From Verrucomicrobiia bacterium (lineage in GTDB: Bacteria; Verrucomicrobiota; Verrucomicrobiia; Limisphaerales; UBA11358): DNA of 64,000 nucleotides. Made by a program: the position numbers and the translations under genes. The notes beneath the pieces were generated by a model. That model was given only the letters and a program-made list of their open reading frames with translations, was not told the origin of the DNA and ran no database searches. Shown piece after piece: positions 12,157 to 45,785 of the stretch (position 1 is its first letter; each line of letters opens with the position of its first letter). The stretch covers positions 188,521 to 252,520 of the forward strand of contig DASZXH010000053.1 of NCBI GenBank assembly GCA_035545995.1, written 5' to 3'.

Positions 12157-12764
12157 GACTCCTCCTGCCGCGAAGTGACAAACAGTGACTCTGACCGCAT
12201 GAACACAGGAGATTTTTCAAATTGCACCTGCGCGGGTGAAGTGACAGCCAATGCCCCGTTTTGACCCGTTGCGACCGAATTTTGTGAGTCTCTTTGTGCG
12301 TCATTTTTCGATGAAATTTGCGCGCGATGGAAATCCAATTTTTCAATCGCTTCTTTCAATGGCAGCATCTTCGCGTCTGTGTAAGTCTTGGCAGTTTGTT
12401 TCGGATCGCGATGTCGCATGAGCGCCATCCGCACGCACTCGCTCGGCGTTCCGGGCGCAAGTTGAGTGCAATATGTGACACGAAAGCTGTGGAAGTCCAA
12501 GCGTCCGTCGCCGCGGTCTTCCCAATCAATTCCAGCCGCCTTCAGGTCGGCATAAAATTGTATGTAGCCAGGGAACCATCCCTTTGGTCTGCGAACCTCG
12601 CCGGAGATGACCCAAAGCGCAAATGTAATTGAACGAAACGTGACCCGATTTCGATACCAAAAGGGTTGATCGCAGGATCTGTTTGGATAGCGACTAGCAC
12701 ATTGAACAGGCATTCTAAAATTGGAATCCGAAATTAAGCTACCCATACTACAGGCGTAGAGCAA
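12150..12764 (-). pseudogene. Tyrosine recombinase (phage-type integrase), C-terminal catalytic part only
   Basis: HSFRVTY (HxxR), MRHRD (His) and KTYTD (Tyr) are present. There is no N-terminal SAM-like domain and no clear first Arg. The ORF reads on through the antisense tRNA (GKWSERQDLNL). The 5' end abuts box A. Confidence 0.7.
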
Positions 12765-12810
12765 TCCTACCCTAATATCTTAATGACAAGTTTGAATAAG
12801 CTGACCATAT
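12748..12810 (+). promoter_or_regulatory. Conserved upstream box, copy A
   Basis: CTACaggcGTAGagcaatcctaCCCTAATatcttaATGACAAGTTTGAATaagcTGACCATat; ATG at 12836. Confidence 0.75.
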
Positions 12811-12835
12811 TACAAGTGGATTCCGATTACAATTT

Positions 12836-13657
12836 ATGAACGTGAATTTCATTAAAAAAATTAGAAATCAGTTTAACGGTTTTACACTAATTGAACTTTT
12901 AGTAGTTATCGCCATCATTGCTATTTTGGCGGCTATGTTGTTGCCCGCTTTGGCTGCTGCAAAAAGAAAAGCACAGATAGCGTCCTGTATGAACAATCTG
13001 CGGCAAATTGGCATTGGTATGACGGTGTATGCTGGTGATAATCAAGACTATGTTTTGTCAGCGCGTCCATCAAATCCGAATACTCCCGCAGGTCAACCAG
13101 TGTCATTTAATCAAAGAGCCTTAAACCCGCCACAAGCATCCTCGGCAAGGCAAGTCAATTTGGACCCGACACTAACCAATGGGCCTTCAATCTGGTGTTG
13201 TCCGTCTTTGCCATCCAAGGGCAATGGGTTACCAGCATACGACTCCTCCAACCAGCAATGGTTAATTGGTTATCAGTATTTTGGTGGTATTACTTGGTGG
13301 TATAACACCGCCTTTTCGAGTGGCACTCCGGCTTACAGTCCAGTGAAACTGGGTAATTCCAAAAGCTCTTGGGTTTTGGCGGCAGATGCTCTGTGCAAAT
13401 TTATTCAAGGAGGTGCCTCTGCAACAAGTTGGAACATTGGCGTTCCTGCTGGTGTCCCCCACCAAAAGTCAGGGACCAAGCGCCCCGATGGTGCTAATGA
13501 ACTCTTGATTGACGGTTCGGTGTCATGGGTCAAATGGGAGAATACTTTGCAGCTTACTGAATATAGCGCGACTTATGAAAACGACTATTTTTATCAAAGT
13601 GATCTTCCTTCGGTATTCACCTCGTTCGTCATCAAGAACCTCGTCCCTACTCCGTAG
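12836..13657 (+). CDS. Prepilin-type N-terminal cleavage/methylation protein, DUF1559 / H-X9-DG type
   Basis: [25 protein letters not shown] is the type IV pilin-like leader. C-terminal [21 protein letters not shown] resembles the H-X9-DG motif (spacing here is X8). Confidence 0.85.
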
Positions 13658-13709
13658 TTGGAGTTAATGCCATGAACACAAGGAGTAAACATGCTCTTTT
13701 CAATAGAAT

Positions 13710-14345
13710 TTAATCCAAATGAACGATTCCCCTCTGTAACGCGGTTGTGACTGCTTGGGTGCGATCATGCACTCCGAGCTTGGCCAATATGTTACCTACG
13801 TGCAATTTGGCTGTCACTCTTGCAATTGCTAATTCGGCGGCGATTTCCTTATTGCTCCTTCCCTTGGCCATCAATGCCAAAACGTCCATTTCACGAACGG
13901 TTAAATCCGAATGTCTCGTCCGGTCAGCCAGACGACTGGCAACGGTTGGCGAAATACGACGTTCACCTGCATGAACCGCTCTAATGGTCTCAATCAATTC
14001 GTTGCGGGAAGCAGATTTGAGCAGGTATGTGCAAGCGCCAGCCTGGAGCGAACGGTAGATGTCTTCCTCGCCGTCATACGTCGAAAGCATGATAATGGCA
14101 GCCGATGGAAATTCCTTGCAGATTGTCTTGGTGGCATCAACCCCGCTGATGCCGGGAAGTTTCAAATCCATCATGACAATATCAGTTTTATGGCGGCGAT
14201 ACAAAGTGATGGCTTGCTCGCCAGTAGAGGCCTCGCATTCAACGACCATGTCCGGTTCCAAATTAATGGACGCAATTAATCCCATTCGGACAAGAAAATG
14301 GTCATCTACCATCATCACCCGGATTTTTTTTGCGTTAGAATTCAT
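13710..14345 (-). CDS. NarL/FixJ-family response regulator (REC + LuxR HTH)
   Basis: IRVMMVDDH, IVMMDLKLPG (phospho-Asp present), LTVREMDVLALMAKGRSNKEIAAEL. Overlaps the kinase gene by 4 nt. Confidence 0.9.
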   Translation of the reverse strand: MNSNAKKIRVMMVDDHFLVRMGLIASINLEPDMVVECEASTGEQAITLYRRHKTDIVMMDLKLPGISGVDATKTICKEFPSAAIIMLSTYDGEEDIYRSLQAGACTYLLKSASRNELIETIRAVHAGERRISPTVASRLADRTRHSDLTVREMDVLALMAKGRSNKEIAAELAIARVTAKLHVGNILAKLGVHDRTQAVTTALQRGIVHLD

Positions 14346-16564
14346 AGTTGAGGTGGAGAGACAATTCTAGTTTCTTTCCATTGAGATTCAGCTTTAGCGG
14401 CAGAGTTAAGGTCCTGTTTCTCCGCAATTTCGACTCGGATTTCAGTTCCCTGCGTCGGAGCGCTAATTACAGTGAAACGTCCTCCCATTTTCAGGACACG
14501 TTCTCTCATATCCTGCAATCCAAAATGACCTCCATAAATATATGATTGATTGTCAGGATGAAAGCCCACCCCATCGTCTATGACACGAAGGCATATCTTG
14601 TCTGAATTATATTCGAGATGAACGACAATTTGCGATGCTTGAGCGTGTTTAACCGCATTTGCCAGGGCTTCCTGGGCTATGCGCAACAGATTATTTTCGA
14701 CTGGCAAAGGCAGTTTACGCGGTGTGCCATTGCTTTCGACGGAAATGGCGACGCGGGCATGAGTTCCCGCTATCCTAGCCACACCGGAAAGGGCATCGGT
14801 AAGATTGCTGTTTTCCAGCAGGTGCGAGCGTAAATCCCACACCGAGCGACGCGCCTCAAACAGACTGTGTCTAGTCATGTTACGTGCCAGTTCAAACATC
14901 TGACGCGCAACGTGCGGGGCCGTGTCAAATTGAGAATCCGCCGTTTCCAATTGAATTGAGATTGCCGCCAGTTCCTGTTCGAGAGTATCGTGAAATTCGC
15001 GGGCGATACGAGTGCGTTCCTCAAATATAGCTTCTCGTTGAACTTTTTCGCTAATCGTGACCGTTTGTTCATGAACTTTTCGGTTCAACTCAAAAACCCA
15101 GCAGAAACCCGCCAAAAGAATTATGCTCACAATGCCAAGCAGCCAGAACAAACGTGAGAGTGTCCACCAAGGGGGATTTCGGACGACAATAACGTCATTC
15201 GGAGACCGCAACAGCAATTGAAATGCTTCCGGGGCTTTTTGTTGCGCAAGGCCCCAATTTTCCACCGGCTGAATCATAGGTTGCGCCACGCATACGCCGG
15301 TTAATTCCAACTCACTGCCTTTTTGCAATGCGAAAAAGCGGTTGTCGGCTCTGGCGGAATCTATCTGCGCATTAAGAATGATATTTGAGGTTTCCATAAT
15401 CAGAATTCGCTTGCCGCCCTCTTCAATCTGATCGGTTAGCCGCGCTCGCAATTGAATTAGCACATTGTCGTAATCTTCCGAAGGCAATTGGCCGCTGTTG
15501 ACCTGCACCGGTTTGGGCCCGGATTGATGTCCAATAATATTGAAAACAGCGTCTTCCATTTCTGGCGCAAATTCTCCCAAGACGGGAAAACCAATCACCT
15601 CTACAATGTCACCCACTGACACATGGTTTGTTTGCACACCCTGCACGTGAAGGCCAGTACCTGCGTTTTGAATAAAAAGCGAGTTCTCATTCACTTCAGT
15701 GACAGTGCCCCGGACTTTGATTCGTTGTCCGTAATAACCTCCGAAATTGAACTGTGCCAAACTGTCCAGTGGCATTTCGGAAATTTGTCCCGGAGCGGTA
15801 GCCTCAATCACGAGGTCCGAGCGGCTGGTTACACTCAAATAAGGAGCACATATCTGCCGCTTTTTATTAAACAGCGTCCGACAAACTCCCTGAACGCGAA
15901 TGGTGGTGCAAACCAATTCCTGAGCCTTCGCGGGGCTTAAATTGAAATGCTCGATTTGCACGGCCAGCCGCCGGCCGTTGAGAAGGATGTTCAGACACGC
16001 CCGATTGGTCCCGATGGGAATGACGGAACGAACAACGCCTGCAAGTTCAATCCACTGGCAATCTTCTCTGCCGCCTGCCAGTTGTTCGTAATCGAAATGC
16101 AGTGGTGTTGGCAATGTTGTCCGACCAAGGATGCGCATATGCTTCGCAAAAACCACGGGCAGATAATCACCCCGTTGAGTAATACCCTCAACTTCCACCT
16201 CATCTCCGGCGGTGACGTTGGTCGCCTCATCCAATTGAACGATTCCCTGACCCAATTTCACAAAAATAGCCGCAGTGGAATCTTGCAGAAACAAACCAAC
16301 ATCATTTTCAGCGTCGTAATAGGTAACCACACCGCGTAACCGCACCGGATATTCTTGAGCCGCCCCATCCGGTGACATTTCCCTCACTTGTTGGGCTGAC
16401 GTCAGGAAAGGTCGTTCGGGCGCCGCATTGGCACAGAAACACACAAAACCACACAGCAGTGTGAAGACGACAAGAGCAAGAGATGCTTCAACATTAAAAC
16501 GCCATACTTTCACAAAAAGCCTTCTGCCATATTTCGACCAAAACATCAATGCAGAAAACATCAT
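14342..16564 (-). CDS. Sensor histidine kinase (HisKA_3/NarX-DesK type) with a ~450-aa extracytoplasmic N-terminal domain
   Basis: N-terminal TM, a long periplasmic region, a second TM (WWTLSRLFWLLGIVSIILLAGFCWVF), the H-box REFHDTLEQELAAI, and HATPase motifs (DDGVGF, GHFGLQDMRER). Confidence 0.85.
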   Translation of the reverse strand: MMFSALMFWSKYGRRLFVKVWRFNVEASLALVVFTLLCGFVCFCANAAPERPFLTSAQQVREMSPDGAAQEYPVRLRGVVTYYDAENDVGLFLQDSTAAIFVKLGQGIVQLDEATNVTAGDEVEVEGITQRGDYLPVVFAKHMRILGRTTLPTPLHFDYEQLAGGREDCQWIELAGVVRSVIPIGTNRACLNILLNGRRLAVQIEHFNLSPAKAQELVCTTIRVQGVCRTLFNKKRQICAPYLSVTSRSDLVIEATAPGQISEMPLDSLAQFNFGGYYGQRIKVRGTVTEVNENSLFIQNAGTGLHVQGVQTNHVSVGDIVEVIGFPVLGEFAPEMEDAVFNIIGHQSGPKPVQVNSGQLPSEDYDNVLIQLRARLTDQIEEGGKRILIMETSNIILNAQIDSARADNRFFALQKGSELELTGVCVAQPMIQPVENWGLAQQKAPEAFQLLLRSPNDVIVVRNPPWWTLSRLFWLLGIVSIILLAGFCWVFELNRKVHEQTVTISEKVQREAIFEERTRIAREFHDTLEQELAAISIQLETADSQFDTAPHVARQMFELARNMTRHSLFEARRSVWDLRSHLLENSNLTDALSGVARIAGTHARVAISVESNGTPRKLPLPVENNLLRIAQEALANAVKHAQASQIVVHLEYNSDKICLRVIDDGVGFHPDNQSYIYGGHFGLQDMRERVLKMGGRFTVISAPTQGTEIRVEIAEKQDLNSAAKAESQWKETRIVSPPQL

Positions 16565-16620
16565 TACACATCGTGCTCATCTAATCATTCGAGTCAACCA
16601 TACATTTGGATAAAAAAAAA

Positions 16621-16690
16621 CTATGCCATAGGCGTAGAACAAACAAACCCCAATGCCGTTGTGACAAATTTGAGTGCTTTGGCCAGAATC
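16621..16690 (+). promoter_or_regulatory. Conserved upstream box, copy B
   Basis: CTATGCCataGGCGTAGaacaaacaaaCCCCAATGccgttgTGACAAATTTGAGTgcTTTGGCCAGaat; start codon at 16706. Confidence 0.8.
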
Positions 16691-16705: not shown

Positions 16706-18886
16706 ATGACCATGAAATTTTGTTTGTTCTTATTTTGTCTAACAATCGTCTCTTTCGTGTCCGGCGCAGAAACTCCGCCACTTTACCTCAATAGCAATCA
16801 GCCCATTGAAACGCGGGTTGACGATTTATTTTCACGAATGACGCTTGAAGAAAAAATTTCACTCGTTCACGCCAATACAACATTTACCACCGCCGCCATT
16901 ACTCGCCTGGGCGTCCCTTGCCGCTGGATGGATGATGGTCCGAATGGCGTGCGCGAGGACATCAGCCCGAATAGTTGGAATTCCGCTGGTCGCACAGACG
17001 ATTTTTCGACGGCCATGCCCGTCGGTATTTGCCTCGCGGCAACATGGAATCCCGATTTAGCTTACGCGGAAGGCGAAACCATCGGCGAAGAAGCCCGCGC
17101 CCGAGGTAAAGACATCATGTTGGGGCCAACGGTCAACATCATGCGGACGCCATTGTGGGGGCGTAACTTTGAATCCTTCGGCGAAGACCCCTTCCTCACG
17201 TCAAAGACGGCCGTTGGTTTTATCCATGGCGAGCAATCGCAGGATGTGTCTTCCTGTGTGAAACACCTCGTCGCCAATAATCAGGAGAGTGAACGCGGCA
17301 GCATAGATGTGGAGATGAGCGAGCGAGCGTTGCGGGAGATTTATCTGCCGGCGTTTAAGGCTGCCGTGCAGGAAGGTGGCGTTTTGTCAGTCATGGGCGC
17401 TTACAACCGGTTCCACAATCAGTATTGCTGCGAAAACGATTATTTGCTTAACCAAATTCTGAAAGGTGAATGGGGCTTCAAAGGTTTGGTCATGTCCGAT
17501 TGGGGCGGCGCGCACGACACGCGAGACGAAGCGATAAATGGCCTTGACCTCGAAATGGGCCTTGATAGCAAACTCGGCGGAATCAAGAGTTACAATAATT
17601 GTCATCTGGCGCAGCCCTACCTCGATTTGCTCCAAAAAGGCGAATTGCCGATGTCGGGACTGGACGACAAAGTTCGTCGCAATCTGCGTGTGATGTTCGC
17701 CACGCATGTTTTCGATTCGGGGCGCACTAATGGTTCGCTCAATACCGTTGCTCATCAAATGGCCGCCCGCCGGATCGCCGAGGAAGGCATCGTGCTTTTG
17801 AAAAACAAAAATCATTTGCTGCCGCTCGATTCGGCCAAAATCAAAACCATCGCTGTCATTGGCGAAAATGCGATTCGTCTTCAAGCCGACGGAGGCAACA
17901 GTTCGGGCATCAAAGCCTTTTATGAAGTCACGCCGCTGCAAGGCATCTTGAATCGAGTTGGTAAAAACGTGAATGTGACTTTTTCCGAAGGTTATCAGAA
18001 AGACGGCGACGCGCACTTGGCTGAACGCGCCATTGCTGCGGCGAAAGCTGCCGACGCAGTTATCTATATTGGCGGCTTGAACCATGATTTAGGCTTCGAT
18101 TGCGAAGGCGCCGACCGCAAAGATTTGGACCTGCCGTATGGCCAGAACAAATTGATTTCACAAATTGTCGCGGCTAATCCACGTACCGTTGTGGTGGTGC
18201 TCGGCACGCCCGTTGCGATGAATTCCTGGCTCGAGCAAACGCCGTCCGTCTTGCAAGCGTGGTATTTGGGCATGGAAGGTGGCAATGCTTTGGCGCGTGT
18301 CCTGTTCGGCGACGTGAACCCTTCCGGCAAATTGCCCTGCACCATTCCGAAACGGCTAATGGATTGTCCGGCTTTCGCAGATTGTCCAGTTACTTATCCG
18401 GGAACCAATGGCGTCGTAACTTACAAAGAAGGTTTGCTTGTCGGTTATCGCTGGTTTGACACCCGGCACATCACGCCGCAATTTCCATTTGGTTTCGGCT
18501 TGAGTTATACGACGTTCAAATACTTGAACTTAAAATTGGTTGCGGGAGATGGAACGAATGCGCTGGTTGTCGCACAGTTTGAAATTCAAAACACCGGCGC
18601 GCGCGACGGCGCGGAAGTGGCGGAACTTTACGTTCACCAAAACCATCCGGGTCTGCCGCGTCCAGAAAAGGAATTGAAGGGATTCAAAAGGGTATTTTTG
18701 AAGTCCGGTGAAACGCAAACCGTTTCCATTCCACTGAACTTCAACGCATTTGCGTTTTACGATCCAGCGCAAAAAACATGGATTGCGGAAAAGGATGATT
18801 TCAAGATTTTGGTCGGCAGCTCTTCGCAAAACATTGCGTTGAAAGATGATTATCGGCTGGCGGAAACGCTCCGGGAAAAAGATTGA
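16706..18886 (+). CDS. GH3 beta-glucosidase (BglX-like) with C-terminal FnIII-like domain
   Basis: Signal MKFCLFLFCLTIVSFVSGA, KHLVANNQE, and GFKGLVMSDWGG (GH3 nucleophile region). The C-terminal ELKGFKRVFLKSGETQTVSIPL is typical of the FnIII-like domain. Confidence 0.9.
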   Translation: MTMKFCLFLFCLTIVSFVSGAETPPLYLNSNQPIETRVDDLFSRMTLEEKISLVHANTTFTTAAITRLGVPCRWMDDGPNGVREDISPNSWNSAGRTDDFSTAMPVGICLAATWNPDLAYAEGETIGEEARARGKDIMLGPTVNIMRTPLWGRNFESFGEDPFLTSKTAVGFIHGEQSQDVSSCVKHLVANNQESERGSIDVEMSERALREIYLPAFKAAVQEGGVLSVMGAYNRFHNQYCCENDYLLNQILKGEWGFKGLVMSDWGGAHDTRDEAINGLDLEMGLDSKLGGIKSYNNCHLAQPYLDLLQKGELPMSGLDDKVRRNLRVMFATHVFDSGRTNGSLNTVAHQMAARRIAEEGIVLLKNKNHLLPLDSAKIKTIAVIGENAIRLQADGGNSSGIKAFYEVTPLQGILNRVGKNVNVTFSEGYQKDGDAHLAERAIAAAKAADAVIYIGGLNHDLGFDCEGADRKDLDLPYGQNKLISQIVAANPRTVVVVLGTPVAMNSWLEQTPSVLQAWYLGMEGGNALARVLFGDVNPSGKLPCTIPKRLMDCPAFADCPVTYPGTNGVVTYKEGLLVGYRWFDTRHITPQFPFGFGLSYTTFKYLNLKLVAGDGTNALVVAQFEIQNTGARDGAEVAELYVHQNHPGLPRPEKELKGFKRVFLKSGETQTVSIPLNFNAFAFYDPAQKTWIAEKDDFKILVGSSSQNIALKDDYRLAETLREKD

Positions 18887-18918
18887 AGGGCAAAACAAAT
18901 TGGGATCGGGTTGCCTGG

Positions 18919-25153: not shown

Positions 25154-25209
25154 AACCATTATTTAAAGAAAGAAAATTTCAGCCAATTCACCAAGTTTGT
25201 AAAAGGAAT

Positions 25210-25278
25210 CTATACCAAGGACATAGGCTAATCCAACCCCAATGCCGCGTTGACAAGTCTAACTTTCTAATCACTATT
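25210..25278 (+). promoter_or_regulatory. Conserved upstream box, copy C
   Basis: CTATaccaaggacATAGgctaatccaaCCCCAATGccgcgtTGACAAGTCTAACtttcTAATCACtat; ATG at 25290 (or 25305). Confidence 0.75.
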
Positions 25279-30140: not shown

Positions 30141-30171
30141 CTTCAAATAAATAATCTTAATTTATGCGATA

Positions 30172-30240
30172 CCTATACCATAGGTCTATGACAAACCAAC
30201 CCCAATGTTTCAGTGACAAATTTGAATACTTTAGCCATAC
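30172..30240 (+). promoter_or_regulatory. Conserved upstream box, copy D (closest to consensus)
   Basis: CCTATaccATAGGtctatgacaaaccaaCCCCAATGtttcagTGACAAATTTGAATacTTTAGCCATac; ATG at 30313. Confidence 0.8.
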
Positions 30241-30312
30241 TTCAACCGTTCCAAAAAGCTGCAATGTAGTTTCAAAATTGCAGCTAAAGTAAAAATAAAA
30301 GCAAACAAACGT

Positions 30313-35812: not shown

Positions 35813-36096
35813 AGATTAATTCATTAAATGGAACAGTTAAATCATTAGACCGTTGAAAATAGCACCGTTCATTTTTCACGTCGCATCTAAACATTTCAAC
35901 AACGGTCGGGCTGATTGTTTGGTATATTCTTGCCATTTGTATTAGACAGTAATGAGGCACGTCTTGGAAATACGGGCGAAGCTGCCTGTTAATTAGGGCG
36001 ATGGTCAGGTGTGTCGCCTCTGCTCCAGTCTCGCTTGGGAATTTGGCCTTTGAAAAATGAACATCGCCAACCGCTCCAACTCGCCATTTTAAGCAA

Positions 36097-36166
36097 CCTA
36101 TCCCGCGGGAGTAGAACAATCCAGCCCCAATGTTTTAGTGACAAATTCATGTGTTTTAGCCATGCT
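36097..36166 (+). promoter_or_regulatory. Conserved upstream box, copy E
   Basis: CCTATcccgcgggaGTAGaacaatccagCCCCAATGttttagTGACAAATTCATGTgtTTTAGCCATgc; ATG at 36225. Confidence 0.8.
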
Positions 36167-39200: not shown

Positions 39201-39896
39201 CCGCTCAGCAACTTTGTTACCGGGACCAACGTGGATTTGTTGACTAATGTCACCACACTGACTCTCAATATTTTTGATGGCAACTTCAGCACCGCTGCAA
39301 CCGCAGACATTGGATTCGCGAACATTGAATTCACCGGCGGCCAAGGTGTCGTGCCTGTTTTCTCGAATTTGAGCAGCAAGACCATTGCGACCGGCACTAC
39401 CAGTGTAATATTGACAGGCAAGGTGGGTTCCTGCGGAGCGGCTTATCTGCCGGTTAATACCCCTGTCACCGTGACCATCAATGGGAATACGCAAACCACC
39501 GCTATTTCTGATTCGACAGGAGATTTCAACATCAATTACAATACCACCGGCTTGGCGAACGGCACTTATCCGGTCACCTATTCATCTGCCGCCGACAACG
39601 TTGTCTTTGCTCCCGCAACTGACACGAGCACCACATTGACCGTAAGTAGTTCGGCGCCTCCAAACTCTCCAACTATCCTGCCGGTTTCTCGGGATGCCAC
39701 GGGCACAAACTTGGTAGTCAGAGTGGAGGCGACTCAAGTTGGACATAATTATTATCTGCTGTCCACAACCAGTCTGACTCCGCCGGTGATTTGGTCAACC
39801 AACAGCATCACCGCCGGAACCGGTGGAACCATCACCAATCTGGTGCCCATAAGTCTGTCTTCACCAGACGTGTTCTTCAAATATCTGGTGCAGTGA
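36225..39896 (+). CDS. 1223-aa modular secreted protein: 3 CBM-like modules, 3 INGNxQTT-type modules, 3 MBG-type repeats, C-terminal beta-sandwich module
   Basis: Signal peptide. CBM-like modules at about 36330-36861, 36879-37461 and 38831-39340. Repeats carry TVTINGNAQTTxISDSTGDFxINYNTTGLP and RAFDGTATA..LSV.NLV.GD.LTLSGS..LAS..VG.Q.ITDFSGLTLGG..A..YTLVGASG (MBG-like). No catalytic motif recognised. Confidence 0.8.
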   Translation: MKKIRNLMKTFCARHLFRVGLAGLFLAVSATVGYGQINYTFNSSNDTTNWLDASQSVTVTPSFIAGDAPPGQALSTGSLGWTGTFDNAGHTFGGLSVSFPATDLTGYGNLEFDVKIKGATDPNGQIQELQPILVQSGAGPDGSTWNQSSVTIALTTVSTNNGWQHIVIPLNTYTNGTLGSTVQLMLAVFDANFTSATSVQLAFDNIQVTGQAPTGLTYYVSIFNSANDITNWQFINNFDPTVSSSFVPGDAPTNGPSTGCMEMSALFNTTYFKYEMAYRFVDAGRLSPALTNYNALEFDLKVGTNGAGQLSPLDSNGYNCQEWDWELVVNDSYVNGGGGNIGAPLTNNLSNNGWSHFRVPASAFGYSSGYFGGMINGMNVTNMYQVNLYPHDPNFPSDTTVYYKITNIKFTGPGATPIYSGLNSRTITYGVNSVILTGTVSDGNGNYLPSNTVVSVTINGKTQSTNIYDSTGDFTINYNLAGLPPSSTPYTITYSNVTDNVTFSAGSDSSTTLTFNKVAVQLFGTRAFDGTATASASILSVVNLVPGDSLTLSGSATLASSAVGTQPITDFSGLTLGGASAAGYTLVGASGSVSITASGPVTPRFSGLTSHTITYGATSVALTGIVSTNGTYPPNGTLITVTINGNAQTTTISDSTGDFSINYNTTGLPAGTYTVNYQSAVATGFNAASDSSTTLTVNKRPVALTGTSVYNGTTSVPASALSVINLIGSDSLTLSGSVGLASGNVGVETVASSGALTLGGSAVANYTAVGASGSVTVTPATLTYVATPTSQNFGSANTNFTGTVTGFLGSDTLANATTGTLAFTSRITPTSLGIWGITGSGLSAVNYVFVQAAGNATALMITPCGPVVALTNWVGIFNSDADTAGWVTSAGAAIGYFYPDAPPSGPSTGCLIWEAAFGGGNPSFNGISTNLPHLNVRNYTTLEMDIKNEGVYDRFSQIQAIQVNLSFGSVTFKAPDIQLHSPANSDWVHYSIPLSNFVTGTNVDLLTNVTTLTLNIFDGNFSTAATADIGFANIEFTGGQGVVPVFSNLSSKTIATGTTSVILTGKVGSCGAAYLPVNTPVTVTINGNTQTTAISDSTGDFNINYNTTGLANGTYPVTYSSAADNVVFAPATDTSTTLTVSSSAPPNSPTILPVSRDATGTNLVVRVEATQVGHNYYLLSTTSLTPPVIWSTNSITAGTGGTITNLVPISLSSPDVFFKYLVQ

Positions 39897-39921
39897 CCGA
39901 TTGAACAACTTGCAGTTCATT

Positions 39922-39960
39922 GGAGGATGCTAATCTTTTAGCATCCTCCAAGTGTTTTAT
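39922..39960 (+). terminator. Terminator hairpin after the modular protein gene
   Basis: Perfect 12-bp stem ggaggatgctaa (39922-33) / ttagcatcctcc (39938-49), loop tctt, followed by aagtgtttt (weak T tract). Confidence 0.65.
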
Positions 39961-40498: not shown

Positions 40499-40552
40499 AT
40501 TCGCCACGCAATCAGAAGAAAGACCAGTATTTAGATAGTCTTGACAAACTCA

Positions 40553-40620
40553 CCTATGCCAAGGGTGTGGAATTGTCCCATCCTAATGTTGGGTTGACAA
40601 GTTCGCGTTTTCGGCAAGGA
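40553..40620 (+). promoter_or_regulatory. Conserved upstream box, copy F (more divergent)
   Basis: CCTATGCCaagggtgtggaattgtcccatCCTAATGttgggtTGACAAGTTCGCGTtTTCGGCAAGga; ATG at 40687. Confidence 0.65.
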
Positions 40621-40686
40621 TTGCTTACAGAATAAAACTGTAAAACATATCATTCGTGTTCGTGAGCACTTTCTCCCCAAGAATTC

Positions 40687-43512
40687 ATGGCCATAATCAT
40701 ATTTAGTCTTCTGAGAAAACTGTTGGGCAAACGATGGTTACATTCCGGCTTAATATGTGTGCTTCTCACCGGAAGTGGGGAAGATAGTTATGGTCAGATA
40801 ACAAACTTGGCTAACATAACTATCAGTGTCAACACCGGCAATACTATACGGACCGCCGACACGCGTTGGTTCGGCATCAACGCGAGTGTCTATGATCCCG
40901 ATCTTAATATTCAGGATGGCATTCCCGAAATCAACAAAGCCGGTTGGCAGACTTTGCGCTTCCCGGGCGGTTCAATCGCCGACACATATCATTGGGCGCA
41001 AAACAATGTCAGTCGCAATAATACCTACGCCAACTTTGCCAAAGTTGCCACCAACATGGGAGCCACTGTCATCCTTACTGTCAATTATGGCAGCGGCACG
41101 GCCGCCGAAGCAGCGGCGTGGGTCGCAGACGCGAACGTGACGAATCATTACGGCTTCAAGTATTGGGAAGTGGGCAACGAAGAATATGGCACGTATGAAA
41201 CCGATAACCACGCTCGCCCGCATGACCCTTATACCTACGCGACGAACTTTGCGGCTTACATTCAACAAATGAAAGCCATTGATCCCACAATCAAAGTCGG
41301 TGTCGTTCTTGACTTGAACCCAACCGCCGACTCCAACGGCTACACCGACCATCCGGCCACCAATCTTGTTACTGGCCAGATATTTTATGGTTGGACCCCA
41401 GTCGTACTAAGCACATTGAGACAACTGGGCGTGACGCCCGATTTCGGCATTCACCATTGGTATCCTGAAAATTCGCCTACTCCAGAAAACGATCAAACGC
41501 TCCTTGCAGGGACGGGTAGCATAGTTGCCAACGCATCGACCCTACGCGGAGAGATCACCCAGTATTTCGGTTCGGGTGGCACGAACATTGAGTTGCTCGT
41601 CACCGAAAACAACAGTTATTCCGGCACACAAGGCAAGCAATCCGTTAGCTTGGTCAATGGTCTTTATTACGCCGACAATCTGGGGCAATTGATGAAGACG
41701 GAGTTCAATGCCTTGGTCTGGTGGGATTATACCGACTCGGGTCCGGGCACCAGCGGAAATCTAAGTTCGAGCCTCTATGGATGGCGGATGTATGGCGACT
41801 TCGGTGTAATGATGACTGGAGCCGCGGAGCCATTGACCAACCGTTATCCTCAATACTTCGCCGCCGAGTTGATGTCTCATTTTATTCGGGCTGGCGACAC
41901 GGTGTTGAATGCATCGAGCAGTAATCCGCTGGTTTCAGCTTATGCGGCGCAACGCACCAATGGTTCATTGACCTTGTTGGCCATTAACAAAAGTCTTGTG
42001 ACAAATTATCCGGTGAGTATATCACTGGCCAATTATACTCCTCTTGAGACAGCTACGCTTTACTCTTATGGTATGCCGCAAGACAACGCGGCTAAAGCGG
42101 GCAACAACTTGGGTTGCGACGTGGCGCAAACCAATATTTCTGGAGTCAGCACGAATTTCACTTACATCCTCGCGCCATATTCCATGACCATCTTCGCCTT
42201 CATGCCGGCAACTTCCTTCTTGGGGTTAAATAACCGAACTATCACTTATGGAACTTCCAGCGTGACGTTGACAGGCATACTGACCACCAACGGCACGTAT
42301 CCGCCCAGTGGAACTGTTGTCGCCGCGACCATCAACGGTAATGCACAAAACACTACCACTTATGACTCAACGGGAGATTTTACCCTCAACTACAACACCA
42401 CGGGATTGTCTGCAAGCGCCACGCCTTACACAGTCACCTACTTATCCGCCGCGAATGGCGGCTTTCCCGCCGAAACCAATGCAGCCACTACTTTGACAAT
42501 CAATCCGCTGCCGGTGGTCTTGACGGGAACTCGCTTTTATGATGAAACAGCGACCGCAACGGCGGCAATCCTATCGGTGTCGAACCTCGTAGGTAGCGAT
42601 GACGTGATATTGAGCGGCAGCGTGGGGTTGGCTGGTGTCGCCATAGGACCAGAGGCCATCACTGATTTCAGCGGACTGACTTTGAGCGGTGTGGCGGCGA
42701 CAAATTACACGTTGGTCGGAGCCAGTGGCACAGTGACAGTAGCAGCTTATCCCACGCCGCAATTCTCAGGTTTGATCAATCAGAGTATTGCTTACGGAAG
42801 TCCCAGCGTAATATTGACGGGCACGCTAGGGACTAATGGCGCTTATCCGCCCAGCGGCACTGTTATCACAGTGACTATCAATTTTTCGCCGCAAACTACC
42901 ACCATTTACGATTCAACGGGAGATTTTATCATCAATTACAATACTGTTGGCCTGCCGGCTTTTCCATTCAGTGTTGCTTATTCCTCCGTTGCGGGCGGTG
43001 GTTTCAGCGCTGCAACTAACGCGAACACCACCTTGACGGTCAATCCCGTGCCGGTGATTTTGACTGGCACACGCGCTTATGACGGAACGGCGACTGCGGC
43101 GGCGGCGATTCTTTCGGTGGCAAATCTTGTTGGAAATGACAATGTGACATTGACTGGCAACGTCGGATTGGCTGGTACTGGTGTGGGAACACAGGTTATC
43201 ACCGACTTTAGCGGGTTGACTTTGGCAGGAGCAGCGATGTGGGATTACACACTTATTGGGGCAAGCGGCACGGTGACAATAACGGCAGGCGGGATAACAT
43301 TAGGTGACATTAGCGTTGATGGCGCTCAATTCATTTTTAACTATCCAACTATTATTGGACAGACTTATCAGGTTGAATACTGTACTAATCTCAGTTCGGG
43401 TGTGTGGTTTCCTGTTGGCGACCCGGTGACTGGCACTGGCGCGCCGGTTTCGGTAACCAACAGTATTGATTCCTCGGCGCAGAAATTCTTCAGGCTATCA
43501 ATAACGCCCTGA
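40687..43512 (+). CDS. Secreted clan GH-A glycoside hydrolase (paralog of 31079..33340) + 2x(INGN module + MBG repeat) + C-terminal beta-sandwich module
   Basis: LRFPGGSIADTYHW, KYWEVGNE, LLVTENN. The repeats lie at about 42213-43290. C-terminus GAQFIFNYPTIIGQTYQVEYCTNLSSGVW..KFFRLSITP. Confidence 0.7.
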   Translation: MAIIIFSLLRKLLGKRWLHSGLICVLLTGSGEDSYGQITNLANITISVNTGNTIRTADTRWFGINASVYDPDLNIQDGIPEINKAGWQTLRFPGGSIADTYHWAQNNVSRNNTYANFAKVATNMGATVILTVNYGSGTAAEAAAWVADANVTNHYGFKYWEVGNEEYGTYETDNHARPHDPYTYATNFAAYIQQMKAIDPTIKVGVVLDLNPTADSNGYTDHPATNLVTGQIFYGWTPVVLSTLRQLGVTPDFGIHHWYPENSPTPENDQTLLAGTGSIVANASTLRGEITQYFGSGGTNIELLVTENNSYSGTQGKQSVSLVNGLYYADNLGQLMKTEFNALVWWDYTDSGPGTSGNLSSSLYGWRMYGDFGVMMTGAAEPLTNRYPQYFAAELMSHFIRAGDTVLNASSSNPLVSAYAAQRTNGSLTLLAINKSLVTNYPVSISLANYTPLETATLYSYGMPQDNAAKAGNNLGCDVAQTNISGVSTNFTYILAPYSMTIFAFMPATSFLGLNNRTITYGTSSVTLTGILTTNGTYPPSGTVVAATINGNAQNTTTYDSTGDFTLNYNTTGLSASATPYTVTYLSAANGGFPAETNAATTLTINPLPVVLTGTRFYDETATATAAILSVSNLVGSDDVILSGSVGLAGVAIGPEAITDFSGLTLSGVAATNYTLVGASGTVTVAAYPTPQFSGLINQSIAYGSPSVILTGTLGTNGAYPPSGTVITVTINFSPQTTTIYDSTGDFIINYNTVGLPAFPFSVAYSSVAGGGFSAATNANTTLTVNPVPVILTGTRAYDGTATAAAAILSVANLVGNDNVTLTGNVGLAGTGVGTQVITDFSGLTLAGAAMWDYTLIGASGTVTITAGGITLGDISVDGAQFIFNYPTIIGQTYQVEYCTNLSSGVWFPVGDPVTGTGAPVSVTNSIDSSAQKFFRLSITP

Positions 43513-43633
43513 ACTTCCTGCTTCTCATGAATTGCCATTAATCATATTGAATATATTAGATGGAGTTTGGACATTTTTTGGTTGGTTTGATTCGTTGCCC
43601 GCCGTCACGGTTAACGATACGGTTGCTTAAGTA

Positions 43634-43706
43634 CCTATGCTGAAGGCATAGTAAAATCCAACCTTAATGTTTTGATGACAAGTTTGAATATTTTACCTAG
43701 AGTTGA
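43634..43706 (+). promoter_or_regulatory. Conserved upstream box, copy G
   Basis: CCTATGCtgaagGCATAGtaaaatccaaCCTTAATGttttgaTGACAAGTTTGAATatTTTACCTAGag; ATG at 43765. Confidence 0.8.
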
Positions 43707-43764
43707 ATTCTGTTTGTGAGAAAGTGTAGTTCATAGTTCAAATCATCCAACAAAATTCATACCA

Positions 43765-45564
43765 ATGAAAACATTCAGGCATCTTCTAAAAACACCTCTA
43801 AAAAAGCGATGGCTTCGGGCTAGCCTGGCAGGTTTGATTCTGACTGTCGTCACCAAGGTCGGCTACGTCTGTGAAACCTCGGCTGGGACTAATGATGTTA
43901 TTCCGAGGAGTTTTTTCGGCCTGCATGGTATGGGCTATGGTTCCAATGGAAATCCAGTTCCATACCAGCCTTGGGGCTTAATAAGAACGTGGGACCATTG
44001 GGGGAATGGCAACATCAGTTGGGCGGGGCTTGAGCCGTCAAAGGGAACTTTTAACTGGACAGCAATGGATGCGACAGTGAATGCGGTCACAAATTTAAAT
44101 GTCGCCATTCTCCACTGTTTCGGCGCGGGGCCAAGTTGGGCGGGCGGCACTGCGCCAACCAACATCTTGGATTGGGATCTCTTCATTACCAACTTTGTAA
44201 CCCGTTACCATACGAAAATAAAATATCTGGAGACTTGGAATGAGGCCATGGCTGGAGAAGGCTTTTATACAGGAACCACTCCGATGCTTGTGCAGATGGA
44301 ACACGATCTTTATACGATAACGAAATCCATTGATCCGACCATCACGGTGCTGACGCCGGACGCAACCGGCGGCAAGGGGAACATGACGATATTTTACAGT
44401 CAGTATTTTGCTGCCGGAGGCACGAATTGCGATGCTGTCGCTTTTCACGGCTATTGCAGCGAGGCCGGCGTGGCTAATCAGATTTGTTATCCAGAAGAGA
44501 TCATAGGCATCGTCGGGAATCTGAAGGCCGCGATGAATGCTTATGGTCAAGGCTCGAAACCCATCTTTTGCACGGAAGGAGACTGGGGGTCTGAAGGGAG
44601 CGGTGCAAATCAGCCCACGACGAATGATGCTGTGGCTTTCTTGGCGCGGCACTACCTTCTCATGTGGTCGTTGGGAGTATCGAGCTATGCTTGGTATGAC
44701 TGGGAGAATAATAACGGGTATTGGCAATGGGGGGAGCTGTGGGACCCGACCTACGGCCTCGGTGCTGCGGGAATTGCGTACCAGCAATTATACTATTGGA
44801 TGGTGGGCGCCAAGATGAGCCAACCCGCTACGAACCAGGGTTCGGTTTACACCTGCGGCTTCACCCGGCCCGGCGGCTATCAAGCCTTGGCGGTCTGGAA
44901 TACCAACAGAACTTCCACTTCCTCGTTCACGGTTCCAAACGGCTACGTCCAGTACCGCGACCTTGTGGGCAACTTGTATAGCATAAGTGGAACAACGGTT
45001 ACCATCGGAATCGAGCCAATTCTGCTTGAAAATATGAACGAGCCCATATTCTCAGGTTTGACCAGCCACACCAATACTTATGGCGTTGCCAGCGTGACAC
45101 TGACGGGCTCAGTGAGCTCCTACGGCACCTATCCGCCCAAGGGCACCGCTGTCACCGTGACCATCAATGGAAATGCGCAGGGGACCACCACTTCTGATAC
45201 GAATGGGGATTTTAGCATCAATTACAACACCACCGGCCTGCCGGCCAGCCCTACGCCTTATACCGTTACCTATTCAAATGCCGCTGCCGGCAGCTTCCCA
45301 GCCGCAACCGATACGAGTAGCACTTTGACAATCAATCCGCTGCCAGTGGTCTTAAACGGACTCAGTGCCAACGGCACGCAGTTCATTTTCAGCTACCCGA
45401 CTATTGCGGGGCAGACCAACCAGCTTCAATATAGCACCAACCTCAGTTCAGGCGTGTGGTTGCCGGCGGGCGACCCGGTTGTGGGCACAGGCGTGCCAGT
45501 CTTGGTGACCAACAGCATCAATCCCTCAATGCAGATGTTCTTCAGGCTGTCCATAACGGAATAA
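43765..45564 (+). CDS. Secreted clan GH-A glycoside hydrolase (GH39/GH5-like) + INGN module + C-terminal beta-sandwich module
   Basis: IRTWDHWGNGNISWAGLEPSKGTFNW, YLETWNEA (acid/base candidate), IFCTEGDWG (nucleophile candidate). C-terminus GTQFIFSYPTIAGQTNQLQYSTNLSSGVW..MFFRLSITE. Confidence 0.6.
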   Translation: MKTFRHLLKTPLKKRWLRASLAGLILTVVTKVGYVCETSAGTNDVIPRSFFGLHGMGYGSNGNPVPYQPWGLIRTWDHWGNGNISWAGLEPSKGTFNWTAMDATVNAVTNLNVAILHCFGAGPSWAGGTAPTNILDWDLFITNFVTRYHTKIKYLETWNEAMAGEGFYTGTTPMLVQMEHDLYTITKSIDPTITVLTPDATGGKGNMTIFYSQYFAAGGTNCDAVAFHGYCSEAGVANQICYPEEIIGIVGNLKAAMNAYGQGSKPIFCTEGDWGSEGSGANQPTTNDAVAFLARHYLLMWSLGVSSYAWYDWENNNGYWQWGELWDPTYGLGAAGIAYQQLYYWMVGAKMSQPATNQGSVYTCGFTRPGGYQALAVWNTNRTSTSSFTVPNGYVQYRDLVGNLYSISGTTVTIGIEPILLENMNEPIFSGLTSHTNTYGVASVTLTGSVSSYGTYPPKGTAVTVTINGNAQGTTTSDTNGDFSINYNTTGLPASPTPYTVTYSNAAAGSFPAATDTSSTLTINPLPVVLNGLSANGTQFIFSYPTIAGQTNQLQYSTNLSSGVWLPAGDPVVGTGVPVLVTNSINPSMQMFFRLSITE

Positions 45565-45716
45565 ATTCGCCATGTGTCGCATAGGCGCTGATCAGCTTTG
45601 AGAAGGCGGTGGATTCAGATGGATAATCCTGACACGCGACTTGATTATCTCGCACGGGACGATGCAAATTTAGTGATTCCTCTTCTTTTTTCGTCAATTA
45701 CTGTGATTTAAGCGCA

Positions 45717-45785
45717 CCTATGCCAGGGGTATAGAATAATTCAACCCTAAAATCTTAATGACTGCTTTGGGTAGCTTATCTAAAG
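45717..45785 (+). promoter_or_regulatory. Conserved upstream box, copy H
   Basis: CCTATGCCaggGGTATAGaataattcaaCCCTAAAatcttaATGACTGCTTTGGGTagCTTATCTAAag. The track start 45758 falls inside this box. Confidence 0.7.

What the first reader, a model, noticed from the sequence alone, without database searches (positions are those of the whole stretch)
12748..45785. A ~65-nt conserved box precedes eight secreted glycan-degradation genes, plus a weak ninth copy at 3466
Eight intergenic regions carry the same oriented element: 12748, 16621, 25210, 30172, 36097, 40553, 43634 and 45717. My hand alignment gives CCTATGCC-N3-5-GGCATAG-(8-12 nt, often aAcAAtCCAA)-CCCCAATG-N5-7-TGACAA(A/G)TTTGAAT-N2-4-TTTAGCCAT. 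The element always points toward the downstream gene and ends 15-100 nt before the start codon. The genes it precedes are the DUF1559 pseudopilin, GH3, GH9-like, the PEP-CTERM CBM protein, the 1223-aa modular protein, two GH-A enzymes and GH31. TGACAA followed by 17 nt and an A/T-containing hexamer (ATATTA, ATACTT, ATGCTA, ACTATT) fits -35/-10 promoter geometry. On that reading, CCCCAATG and the dyad would be upstream activator sites. However, the 5' dyad changes in a compensatory way: CTAC/GTAG in copy A, CTATGC/GCATAG in G, and G-T pairs in B and H. That pattern is also what a transcribed hairpin would show. I do not recognise this as any described promoter class, riboswitch or REP/MITE family.
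Basis: seen in the sequence. Interest (0 to 1): 0.85.

Follow-up and report, generated by a model that had tools for sequence, protein, structure and literature searches.

The report
Shared regulated promoter for glycan-degradation genes
Eight genes for secreted sugar-polymer-degrading proteins in an uncultured Verrucomicrobiae bacterium sit behind the same ~75-base promoter, which carries an upstream protein-binding inverted repeat most likely read by the neighbouring two-component response regulator: an ordinary kind of regulon signature, in a little-studied phylum.

Summary
The eight copies are real. They are all on the + strand, align almost without gaps (nhmmer E 1e-14 to 1e-19), lie between genes and point at the next gene. 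The ninth copy at 3466 is not a family member.

Relatives added 19 more copies on 11 metagenome or MAG contigs. All 27 point at genes for secreted glycan-active proteins or pseudopilins.

What is conserved is a sigma-70-type promoter. TGAC of an nTGACA -35 hexamer is invariant. A -10 hexamer cAnAnT lies 17±1 nt downstream, with A(-11) and T(-7) in at least 90% of copies. Conservation stops at the last T of the -10.

Upstream, centred near -67, lies an imperfect inverted repeat, CTAYRCC-N3-GGYRTAG, followed by a conserved block from -58 to -36.

The dyad does not covary beyond shuffled controls, and its central pair is broken in 9 of 19 copies. RNA folding is unremarkable and Rfam finds nothing. 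The transcribed-hairpin reading is therefore not supported.

The module follows orthologues of the adjacent sensor kinase and NarL-type regulator (13710-16564). It lies in the kinase-divergent intergenic region in all 8 loci examined. The dyad resembles a NarL 7-2-7 site that is 1 bp shorter.

Verdict: a two-component-system regulon promoter that spread to new genes in this lineage. It is a new member of a known kind, of moderate interest.

The parts
12738..12811 (+). Copy A, before the DUF1559/N_methyl pseudopilin gene (12836-13657). Dyad region 12743-12759 with a degenerate left arm; -35 ATGACA 12783-12788; -10 CATATT 12806-12811.
   Evidence: nhmmer E 1.2e-16; alignment A2; promoter scan lists 12783-12811; hexamers.
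16616..16689 (+). Copy B, before GH3 (16706-18886) and divergent from the kinase gene. Dyad CTATGCC-ATA-GGCGTAG 16621-16637; -35 GTGACA 16661-16666; -10 CAGAAT 16684-16689.
   Evidence: nhmmer E 1.2e-19. Orthologous copies precede GH3 in L011 and L014.
25205..25277 (+). Copy C, before the GH9 and esterase genes. Dyad 25210-25226; -35 TTGACA 25250-25255; 16-nt spacer; -10 CACTAT 25272-25277.
   Evidence: nhmmer E 7.7e-14.
30168..30241 (+). Copy D, before the 225-aa PEP-CTERM protein gene (30313-30990). Dyad 30173-30189; -35 GTGACA 30213-30218; -10 CATACT 30236-30241.
   Evidence: nhmmer E 7.5e-18. Copies precede PEP-CTERM homologues in L004, L005 and L006.
36093..36166 (+). Copy E, before the 1223-aa YDG/CBM protein gene. 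Dyad 36098-36114; -35 GTGACA 36138-36143; -10 CATGCT 36161-36166.
   Evidence: nhmmer E 4.5e-18. Orthologous copy at L006 2446.
40549..40621 (+). Copy F, before the 941-aa YDG protein gene. Dyad 40554-40570; -35 TTGACA 40594-40599; 16-nt spacer; -10 AAGGAT 40616-40621.
   Evidence: nhmmer E 7.9e-15. Orthologous copy at L006 6911.
43630..43703 (+). Copy G, before the 599-aa secreted protein gene. Dyad CTATGCT-GAA-GGCATAG 43635-43651; -35 ATGACA 43675-43680; -10 TAGAGT 43698-43703.
   Evidence: nhmmer E 1.5e-18. Orthologous copy at L006 11317.
45713..45786 (+). Copy H, before the GH31-GH2 genes. Dyad 45718-45734; -35 ATGACT 45758-45763; -10 TAAAGT 45781-45786. The listed ORF start at 45758 lies inside the -35, so the real start is further downstream (ATG 45809 or GTG 45845).
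   Evidence: nhmmer E 2.1e-14.
13710..14345 (-). NarL/FixJ-family response regulator (receiver plus GerE helix-turn-helix), the proposed binder of the dyad.
   Evidence: Pfam. NCBIfam NarL model E 3e-42, below the equivalog cut-off. Orthologues are 66-82% identical with an invariant VTxKLHVG recognition helix. It lies next to the element in all 8 loci.
14342..16564 (-). HisKA_3 sensor kinase with two transmembrane helices and a ~415-aa periplasmic domain predicted as four tandem OB-like barrels; the proposed signal input.
   Evidence: Pfam; transmembrane scan; AlphaFold2 pLDDT 89.7; Foldseek hits to OB arrays; 518 homologues.

Best explanation
Each box is a complete activator-dependent promoter of the sigma-70 type, not an RNA. 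Numbering takes the last T of the -10 hexamer as -7. It contains:
1. An imperfect inverted repeat, CTAYRCC-N3-GGYRTAG, centred near -67 and preceded by an A-tract.
2. A conserved block from -58 to -36, roughly AACAATCCAACCYYAATG.
3. An almost invariant -35 hexamer, nTGACA.
4. A 17±1-nt spacer.
5. A weak -10 hexamer, cAnAnT.

Proposed mechanism:
- The membrane kinase (14342-16564) senses a periplasmic signal, probably a glycan fragment, through its tandem-OB domain.
- It phosphorylates the NarL-family regulator (13710-14345).
- A dimer of the regulator binds the inverted repeat. A further protomer or a polymerase contact may use the -58 to -36 block.
- This recruits RNA polymerase, so eight transcription units of secreted glycan-degrading and glycan-binding proteins are switched on together.

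Shown here: the repeat family, its gene-proximal orientation, the promoter geometry, the lack of RNA-type covariation, and its co-conservation with the kinase/regulator pair.

Inferred: transcription initiation, regulator binding, activation rather than repression, and the nature of the signal.

In distant relatives there is one copy next to the kinase. It drives a secreted CBM-like protein, followed in most of these loci by a pseudopilin gene. The window's lineage carries the module in front of many more genes, and its copies share a lineage-specific spacer sequence. This suggests spread by duplication of the promoter.
For: Family and position:
- 8 of 8 window copies and 27 of 27 copies on 12 contigs lie upstream of, and point towards, genes for GH3, GH9, GH31, GH2, YDG/CBM proteins, PEP-CTERM proteins, pseudopilins and other secreted proteins.

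Promoter geometry:
- In the 19-copy alignment, T47 G48 A49 C50 are invariant, A70 and T74 are at least 90% conserved, and similarity ends after column 74.
- nAnnnT follows nTGACA at 16-18 nt in 25 of 27 copies, at exactly 17 nt in 19.
- Loci L015-L020 (kinase 46-60% identical) have unrelated spacer sequences, yet the left half-site, the fixed 34-nt distance to TGAC and the -10 position persist.
- Copies A, B and C leave only 11-24 nt between the -10 and the first candidate start codon.

Not RNA:
- The dyad shows no covariation above shuffles and a broken central pair.
- There is no consistent fold and no Rfam match.

Link to the regulator:
- The module lies in the kinase-divergent intergenic region in the window and in all 7 orthologue loci fetched.
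- The regulator's recognition helix is invariant.
- The consensus dyad TATACC-AAA-GGCGTA resembles the NarL 7-2-7 site TACCCCT-AA-AGGGGTA quoted in PMC4549865.
Against: - There are no transcription start-site or binding data, so every functional step is inferred.
- The -35 is unusually invariant for a housekeeping-sigma promoter and the -10 is weak. A dedicated sigma factor, or a protein contacting TGACA, is therefore not excluded.
- The conserved -58 to -36 block and the 21-nt-spaced direct repeat AATGTTTTRG are not explained by a single regulator dimer.
- The dyad is 1 bp shorter than a NarL 7-2-7 site. Its asymmetry (left CTATAC, right GGCGTAG) is itself conserved. In L018-L020 the right arm differs although the recognition helix does not.
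- Co-localisation of the regulator and the site is circumstantial.
- Only about 300 kb of related sequence could be examined, not a whole genome.
Confidence: 0.7

Rival explanations
1. The box is transcribed and acts as a cis-regulatory RNA leader, such as a 5' hairpin or a riboswitch-like element. Transcription would start upstream of the dyad.
For: - 86.5% of cells in the 7-bp dyad can form standard pairs when G-U is counted.
- Copies B and G fold the dyad as a perfect hairpin in the minimum-free-energy structure.
- Copies D to H have further conserved sequence downstream of the box, within gene families.
Against: - Covariation and percentage paired equal the shuffled controls. The central pair is unpaired in 9 of 19 copies and the commonest pair at column 9-19 is U-G.
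- RNAalifold gives -1.2 kcal/mol with a covariation term of -0.09.
- Folding z-scores run from -2.0 to +1.35 with no shared fold.
- Rfam has no hit at E <= 1.
- Family-wide conservation ends exactly at a -10-like hexamer correctly spaced from a -35.
- In L018-L020 the left arm is kept while the right arm changes without compensation.
Confidence: 0.05
2. The box is a mobile or propagating non-coding repeat: a REP or MITE element, or a 'putative mobile promoter' in the sense of Matus-Garcia et al. 2012. On this reading its similarity reflects recent copying rather than shared regulation.
For: - About 75 nt of homology lies in front of non-homologous genes.
- The spacer sequence and an internal 21-nt direct repeat are shared only within the window's clade, which suggests descent from one ancestral copy.
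- Copies G and H also share the 5' UTR and the first codons.
- One copy in L005 carries a 13-nt internal duplication.
Against: - The aligned ends of the copies show no shared terminal inverted repeats and no sign of target-site duplications; no dedicated repeat search was run.
- Every copy has the same orientation relative to its gene.
- Copies sit at orthologous positions in genomes only 70-80% identical in DNA. Examples are GH3 in the window, L011 and L014, and the 1223-aa and 941-aa genes in L006. They are therefore old and inherited vertically.
- Pairwise identity is 51-72%, and only 1 of 28 pairs reaches 80% over 50 nt, the published criterion (PMC3488235).
- Past propagation as an origin is compatible with the best explanation. 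Only the 'no shared regulation' part is a rival.
Confidence: 0.12
3. The box is the promoter of a dedicated alternative (ECF-type) sigma factor, which would explain the invariant TGACAA. Alternatively it is controlled by the AraC-family protein (18883-19899) through the direct repeats that flank the -35.
For: - The -35 is invariant in 27 of 27 copies, as is typical of ECF regulons.
- The 21-nt-spaced direct repeat AATGTTTTRG flanks the -35. This geometry resembles the paired direct-repeat sites of AraC/XylS regulators, which I recall from memory.
- An AraC gene follows GH3 in the window and, by DNA similarity to the window's AraC region, in L011.
Against: - The -10 shows the A(-11)/T(-7) signature of sigma-70, not the CGT-type motif of ECF promoters.
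- No sigma/anti-sigma pair is conserved near the copies; only L016 has one, 7 kb away.
- AraC is absent within ±10 kb in L014 and L016-L020, where the module persists.
- The direct repeat is not conserved in L015-L017.
Confidence: 0.1

Closest known systems
NarL/NarP-dependent promoters of E. coli (7-2-7 inverted heptamers upstream of a sigma-70 promoter)
   Same: - A receiver-GerE response regulator is paired with a HisKA_3 kinase.
- The site is an inverted repeat with TA..CC / GG..TA ends: TATACC-AAA-GGCGTA here, against TACCCCT-AA-AGGGGTA (PMC4549865).
- The site lies upstream of a -35/-10 promoter.
   Different: - The dyad is 1 bp shorter (15 against 16 bp) and consistently asymmetric.
- The regulator scores below NCBIfam's NarL equivalog cut-off (144 bits against 250), so it is a family member and not an orthologue.
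- The sensor has a tandem-OB periplasmic domain.
- The regulon encodes secreted glycan-active proteins, not respiratory enzymes.
- About 75 nt are conserved, including the -58 to -36 block.
Polysaccharide utilisation locus regulation in Bacteroidota (hybrid two-component systems, SusR, ECF/anti-sigma pairs)
   Same: A locally encoded envelope sensor coordinates several transcription units of secreted glycoside hydrolases and glycan-binding proteins. The comparison with Bacteroidota rests on my own knowledge.
   Different: - Pfam found no SusC/SusD family on any window protein scanned.
- The system is a classical two-protein kinase/regulator pair with a GerE output, not a hybrid kinase with an AraC output.
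- The conserved partners are prepilin-type DUF1559 proteins and PEP-CTERM proteins.
Putative mobile promoters (Matus-Garcia, Nijveen and van Passel 2012, PMC3488235)
   Same: [quoted passage not shown]
   Different: - Identity is 51-72% and not >= 80%.
- Copies are conserved at orthologous loci across related genomes.
- Copies are tied to one regulator and one functional class.
ComA tripartite sites in Bacillus subtilis (an inverted repeat plus extra half-sites nearer the -35), recalled from memory
   Same: A NarL-family regulator with an inverted repeat, followed by additional conserved sequence between the repeat and the -35.
   Different: Here it is not shown that the -58 to -36 block is a half-site. 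Its similarity to the left arm (AAACCTATAC against AAACCAAATG) is weak.

Membership tests
Sigma-70-type bacterial promoter | A -35 hexamer close to TTGACA | tested here: met
   nTGACA occurs in 25 of 27 copies and nTGACT in the other 2. TGAC is invariant, and three copies have TTGACA exactly.
Sigma-70-type bacterial promoter | A -10 hexamer with A at position 2 and T at position 6, 16-18 nt after the -35 | tested here: met
   Found in 25 of 27 copies, 19 of them at exactly 17 nt. A70 and T74 are at least 90% conserved in alignment A2. The feature is retained where the spacer sequence is unrelated.
Sigma-70-type bacterial promoter | Transcription starts about 7 nt downstream of the -10 | not testable with these tools
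   No transcriptome or start-site data are available.
NarL/FixJ-family regulator operator (7-2-7-like) | Inverted heptamers with TA..../....TA ends | tested here: inconclusive
   The site is CTAYRCC-N3-GGYRTAG. It has the same outer TA and inner CC/GG as TACCCCTAAAGGGGTA but is 1 bp shorter and asymmetric.
NarL/FixJ-family regulator operator (7-2-7-like) | A cognate regulator of that family is encoded nearby and co-conserved with the site | tested here: met
   A receiver-GerE regulator and a HisKA_3 kinase lie next to the module in 8 of 8 loci. The recognition helix is invariant.
NarL/FixJ-family regulator operator (7-2-7-like) | The regulator binds the site and expression depends on it | not testable with these tools
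   This needs EMSA or DAP-seq and genetics.
Structured cis-regulatory RNA (riboswitch, leader or any Rfam family) | Match to a curated covariance model | tested here: not met
   No hit at the copies, either at gathering score or at E <= 1.
Structured cis-regulatory RNA (riboswitch, leader or any Rfam family) | Base pairs maintained by compensatory change | tested here: not met
   The covariation score is 0.203 against a shuffled mean of 0.194, and 158 of 500 shuffles reach it. Three cells change on both sides, against 3.4 expected. The alifold covariation term is -0.09.
Putative mobile promoter (PMC3488235) | [quoted passage not shown] | tested here: not met
   Mean identity is 61% over 76 nt. 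Only the D-E pair reaches 80% in a 50-nt window.
REP or MITE repeat | Terminal inverted repeats or target duplications, and orientation independent of genes | tested here: not met
   27 of 27 copies are co-oriented with the downstream gene. The aligned ends of the copies show no shared termini; no dedicated repeat search was run.

The most novel reading that the evidence does not exclude
The module is a portable regulator-dependent promoter, in some copies fused to a 5' UTR and a shared N-terminal leader peptide. Through it, a Verrucomicrobiae lineage has placed non-homologous secreted CAZyme genes under one tandem-OB sensor kinase and NarL-type regulator.

The ancestral, widely conserved target of that system is an operon for a secreted CBM-like protein, usually followed by a DUF1559 pseudopilin gene. 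On this reading the system would be a PVC-superphylum counterpart of a polysaccharide utilisation locus. It would also give the very large, uncharacterised DUF1559 family a first regulatory link to glycan capture.
Probability: 0.3. Interest if true: 0.65.

Novelty: new member of a known kind. Interest (0 to 1): 0.4.

Why it matters
- I recall no described promoter or regulon for Verrucomicrobiota, and three full-text searches found none. These bacteria degrade polysaccharides in soil, peat and water.
- The box supplies a concrete operator and promoter motif, a candidate regulator pair, and a defined set of eight co-regulated transcription units. These can be tested directly by EMSA, DAP-seq or reporter fusions.
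- The box can also be used to predict regulons in metagenome-assembled genomes.
- The kinase/regulator pair is widespread: 518 homologues at E <= 1e-20.
- The pair lies next to prepilin-type (N_methyl) genes in 7 of 8 loci. Pfam detects DUF1559 only weakly, in the window, L018 and L019.
- The motif therefore offers a route to the function of DUF1559 pseudopilin-like proteins.
- As a kind of element it is not new; it is a two-component-system-dependent promoter.

Tried and rejected
- **Ninth copy at 3466.** Rejected: no nhmmer hit at E <= 100, and 31 of 76 matches to the consensus.
- **RNA hairpin or leader.** Rejected on the covariation counts, alifold, single-sequence folds and two Rfam scans.
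- **Scan of genome contigs with a strict 46-nt degenerate pattern.** Only one true hit was found (L004, a Verrucomicrobiota MAG from SPRUCE peat) and one chance hit inside an ORF (L003). The source genome is evidently not among the species representatives, so no whole-genome census was possible.
- **Metagenome scan.** It gave 5 useful loci on 4 contigs (L006 and L011 are parts of one contig). nhmmer did not confirm four other loci: L007 scored only E 0.014 and L009, L012 and L013 gave no hit at E <= 1.
- **Extending the source contig beyond the window.** Exact look-up of the edge proteins failed: no gene with exactly that product is on record. Look-up of the kinase returned only Logan contigs that lie inside the window.
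- **AraC (18883-19899) as regulator.** It is not co-conserved with the module.
- **ECF sigma factor.** No conserved sigma/anti-sigma neighbour, and the -10 is of the sigma-70 type.
- **Consensus promoter scan.** It lists only 4 of the 8 copies, and the total number of sites in the region is not above the shuffled expectation. The support comes from the aligned columns, not from that scan.
- **Literature.** Searches for a described Verrucomicrobia promoter motif, DUF1559 regulation or a two-component glycan regulon found nothing relevant.

Full report
**1. The observation**

- a prepilin-type N_methyl/DUF1559 protein (12836-13657);
- GH3 (16706-18886) followed by an AraC-family gene;
- GH9 (25290-27701) and an esterase;
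- a 225-aa PEP-CTERM protein (30313-30990);
- a 1223-aa YDG/CBM protein (36225-39896);
- a 941-aa YDG protein (40687-43512);
- a 599-aa protein with no Pfam family (43765-45564);
- GH31 followed by GH2 (45758-53760).

A HisKA_3 sensor kinase (14342-16564, minus strand) and a receiver-GerE response regulator (13710-14345, minus strand) lie between copies A and B.

The eight boxes align without gaps over about 80 nt. An HMM built from them recovers all eight on the + strand at E 7e-10 to 1e-15, and the next window hit has E 0.23. An HMM built from 19 copies gives 8e-14 to 1e-19, with the next hit at E about 1. A degenerate 46-nt pattern finds six copies against 0.00 expected in shuffles.

About 13% of the window is intergenic. 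All eight copies are intergenic and point at the next gene, which has a rough chance of 4e-10.

The proposed ninth copy at 3466 is not recovered even at E <= 100. It matches the consensus at 31 of 76 positions and lacks the dyad and TGACAA. What it shares is CCCCAATG, an 8-mer that occurs 12 times in the window.

**2. Source and relatives**

The GH3 and kinase proteins occur with identical sequence on Logan assemblies of SRR12170516 and SRR12170508. NCBI also holds the kinase as a protein of a Verrucomicrobiae MAG, on a 253-kb contig.

A pattern scan of species-representative genomes found one true copy, in a Verrucomicrobiota MAG from SPRUCE peat (L004). It lies upstream of a homologue of the PEP-CTERM gene (39% identical).

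A metagenome scan found four contigs (loci L005, L006 with L011, L008, L010) that are 70-80% identical in DNA to the window, share its gene order, and carry several copies each.

The kinase has 518 homologues at E <= 1e-20; those that carry a source name are mostly labelled Verrucomicrobiae, Verrucomicrobiota or Limisphaerales. I fetched seven loci (L014-L020) whose kinases are 46-66% identical to the window's.

In all, 27 copies on 12 contigs were collected. Every one lies upstream of, and is oriented towards, a gene for a secreted glycan-active protein, a CBM-like protein, a PEP-CTERM protein or a pseudopilin.

**3. Anatomy**

In the 19-copy alignment A2:
- The invariant columns are T9, C11 and G16 in the dyad, and T47 G48 A49 C50.
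- Columns conserved in at least 90% of copies include A70 and T74.
- Columns 46-51 read nTGACA, and three copies read TTGACA exactly.
- Columns 69-74 read cAnAnT.
- The spacer is 17 nt in most copies, 16 nt in four and 15 nt in one.
- Similarity across the whole family stops after column 74. Further downstream, only copies in front of paralogous genes resemble each other.

Over all 27 copies, an nAnnnT hexamer lies 16-18 nt after nTGACA in 25 copies, and at exactly 17 nt in 19. The copies are related, so this count is not an independent-trials statistic. However, the spacer sequences in L015-L020 are unrelated to those of the window, and the two hexamers still keep their positions. That is the pattern expected of a sigma-70-type promoter.

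With T74 taken as -7:
- the inverted repeat (columns 6-12 and 16-22) is centred near -67;
- a moderately conserved block, AACAATCCAACCYYAATG, spans -58 to -36;
- an A-tract precedes the dyad.

**4. The hairpin question**

The dyad CTAYRCC-N3-GGYRTAG can pair in 86.5% of cells if G-U is allowed. Every covariation measure nevertheless equals its shuffled control, with 158-206 of 500 shuffles reaching the observed value. The central pair is unpaired in 9 of 19 copies, and the commonest state of pair 9-19 is U-G.

RNAalifold gives -1.2 kcal/mol with a covariation term of -0.09. Folding each copy with its leader gives z-scores from -2.0 to +1.35 and no common structure. Rfam finds nothing at the copies, either at gathering thresholds or at E <= 1.

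In L018-L020 the left arm CTATACT is kept while the right arm becomes AGTAT-like, without compensation.

The two arms therefore behave as two related protein half-sites, not as the strands of a helix.

**5. Which protein**

In the window and in all seven orthologue loci, the motif CTATAC(C/T)-N34-TGAC(A/T) occurs in the intergenic region next to the kinase gene. It always points away from the kinase.

The regulators encoded after those kinases are 66-82% identical and share an invariant VTxKLHVG recognition helix. NCBIfam places the regulator in the NarL/NarP/MctR group, below the equivalog cut-offs.

The consensus dyad TATACC-AAA-GGCGTA has the same TA..CC / GG..TA layout as the high-affinity NarL 7-2-7 site TACCCCT-AA-AGGGGTA (PMC4549865), but is one base pair shorter. 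This resemblance is a lead and not a test.

The AraC gene is absent from most loci that keep the module. No sigma/anti-sigma pair is conserved nearby.

The kinase has two transmembrane segments flanking a ~415-residue periplasmic domain. AlphaFold2 models this domain with pLDDT 89.7 as four successive beta-barrels. Foldseek matches them to tandem OB-fold arrays such as HIN200, RPA and BRCA2. That fits a periplasmic ligand sensor but does not identify the ligand.

**6. History**

In L015-L020 the only full copy, with the left half-site at the fixed 34-nt distance from TGAC, is the one next to the kinase. It drives a secreted protein of 450-710 residues. In the L016, L017 and L020 proteins the mature N-terminus (QTIITNxYxNTF...) resembles that of the window's PEP-CTERM and YDG proteins. 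An N_methyl pseudopilin gene follows in five of these six loci.

L014 (kinase 66% identical) has three copies. The window has eight, and the contigs of its close relatives carry several each.

Within this clade the copies also share the spacer sequence and a 21-nt-spaced direct repeat, AATGTTTTRG. This repeat is the strongest internal self-similarity of the element and is not seen in L015-L017.

Copies G and H share the 5' UTR and the first ~15 codons as well.

Together these points suggest that one ancestral regulator-dependent promoter was duplicated in front of further genes.

The copies are old. They are 51-72% identical to each other and sit at orthologous positions in genomes that have diverged to 70-80% DNA identity. 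They do not meet the 80%-over-50-nt criterion for putative mobile promoters. The aligned ends show none of the features of REP or MITE elements.

**7. Verdict**

The box is a composite promoter: a sigma-70-type core plus an upstream operator. It most likely serves the regulon of the adjacent kinase and NarL-family regulator.

- Shown: the family, its position and orientation, the promoter geometry, the absence of RNA-type constraint, and co-conservation with the two-component system.
- Inferred: initiation, binding, the sign of regulation and the signal.
- Unexplained: the -58 to -36 block, the direct repeat and the invariance of TGACA. A second bound protomer or a second factor may account for them.
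- Novelty: the kind of element is known. The specific motif, its regulator family and its link to DUF1559 pseudopilins appear undescribed in the literature that could be searched.

Noticed in passing
window 14342-16564 (-), kinase residues ~45-470: The periplasmic part of the sensor kinase has no Pfam domain. AlphaFold2 predicts it with pLDDT 89.7 as four tandem OB-like beta-barrels, and the best PDB matches are HIN200, RPA and BRCA2 OB arrays. The family has 518 homologues at E <= 1e-20; named sources mostly label them Verrucomicrobiae or Verrucomicrobiota.
   Followed up: partly
window 36225, 40687, 43765, 45809-45960, 30313; also L005, L006, L008, L010: Secreted proteins that differ in their mature parts share an N-terminal leader of the form MKTFRHLLKTPLKKRW(F/L)RAGLA...GYGQ. 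GH31 carries a degenerate in-frame version about 40 residues ahead of its hydrophobic signal segment. This may be an extended, lineage-specific signal peptide that moves together with the promoter.
   Followed up: partly
columns 37-46 and 58-67 of each copy, e.g. window 30204-30213 and 30225-30234: The direct repeat AATGTTTTRG occurs 21 nt apart, just upstream of the -35 and of the -10. It is the strongest self-similarity at any offset (mean 6.6 of 10 matches). It is present in the window's clade, only as a repeated AATG in L014, and not in L015-L017.
   Followed up: partly
window 9953-12746: To the left of copy A lie a GH20 gene split into two ORFs (9953-10588 and 10843-11157), an AAA_30 fragment (11407-11751, minus strand) and tRNA-Pro (12066-12143). 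They are followed by a 209-aa ORF with a weak C-terminal phage-integrase match (E 0.006). This may be the border of an integrated island that carries the glycan cluster.
   Followed up: no
L014-L020 (kinase at 10001); window 12836-13657: The kinase/regulator pair is flanked by prepilin-type N_methyl genes in 7 of 8 loci; Pfam detects DUF1559 only weakly, in the window, L018 and L019. The pseudopilin gene often follows a secreted protein of 450-710 residues with no Pfam family. Dyad-like sites also precede N_methyl genes on the regulator side in L018 (CTAAACTAAAGTATTAG) and L020 (CTACTTCCAAAGGCGTAG).
   Followed up: partly
L005 ~1684-1775 (-): One copy in a relative carries a 13-nt tandem duplication, TAATGTTTTGGTG, between the CCTTAATG block and the -35. 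nhmmer therefore splits it into two partial hits.
   Followed up: no
window 31017-31053 and 39920-39951: Long perfect hairpins (17 and 14 pairs) lie directly after the PEP-CTERM gene and the 1223-aa gene. They are probably terminators. The 767-aa gene after the first hairpin has no box, although its homologues in L008 and L010 do.
   Followed up: no
window 20110-25153: An operon that looks like fucose catabolism (RbsD/FucU, alcohol dehydrogenase, GFO/IDH, aldo-keto reductase, MFS transporter) follows the AraC gene and has no box. AraC more plausibly controls this operon than the box regulon.
   Followed up: no
window 55982-57872 (-): An encapsulin (Linocin_M18) gene is paired with a DyP-type peroxidase gene. 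The pair is unrelated to the finding.
   Followed up: no
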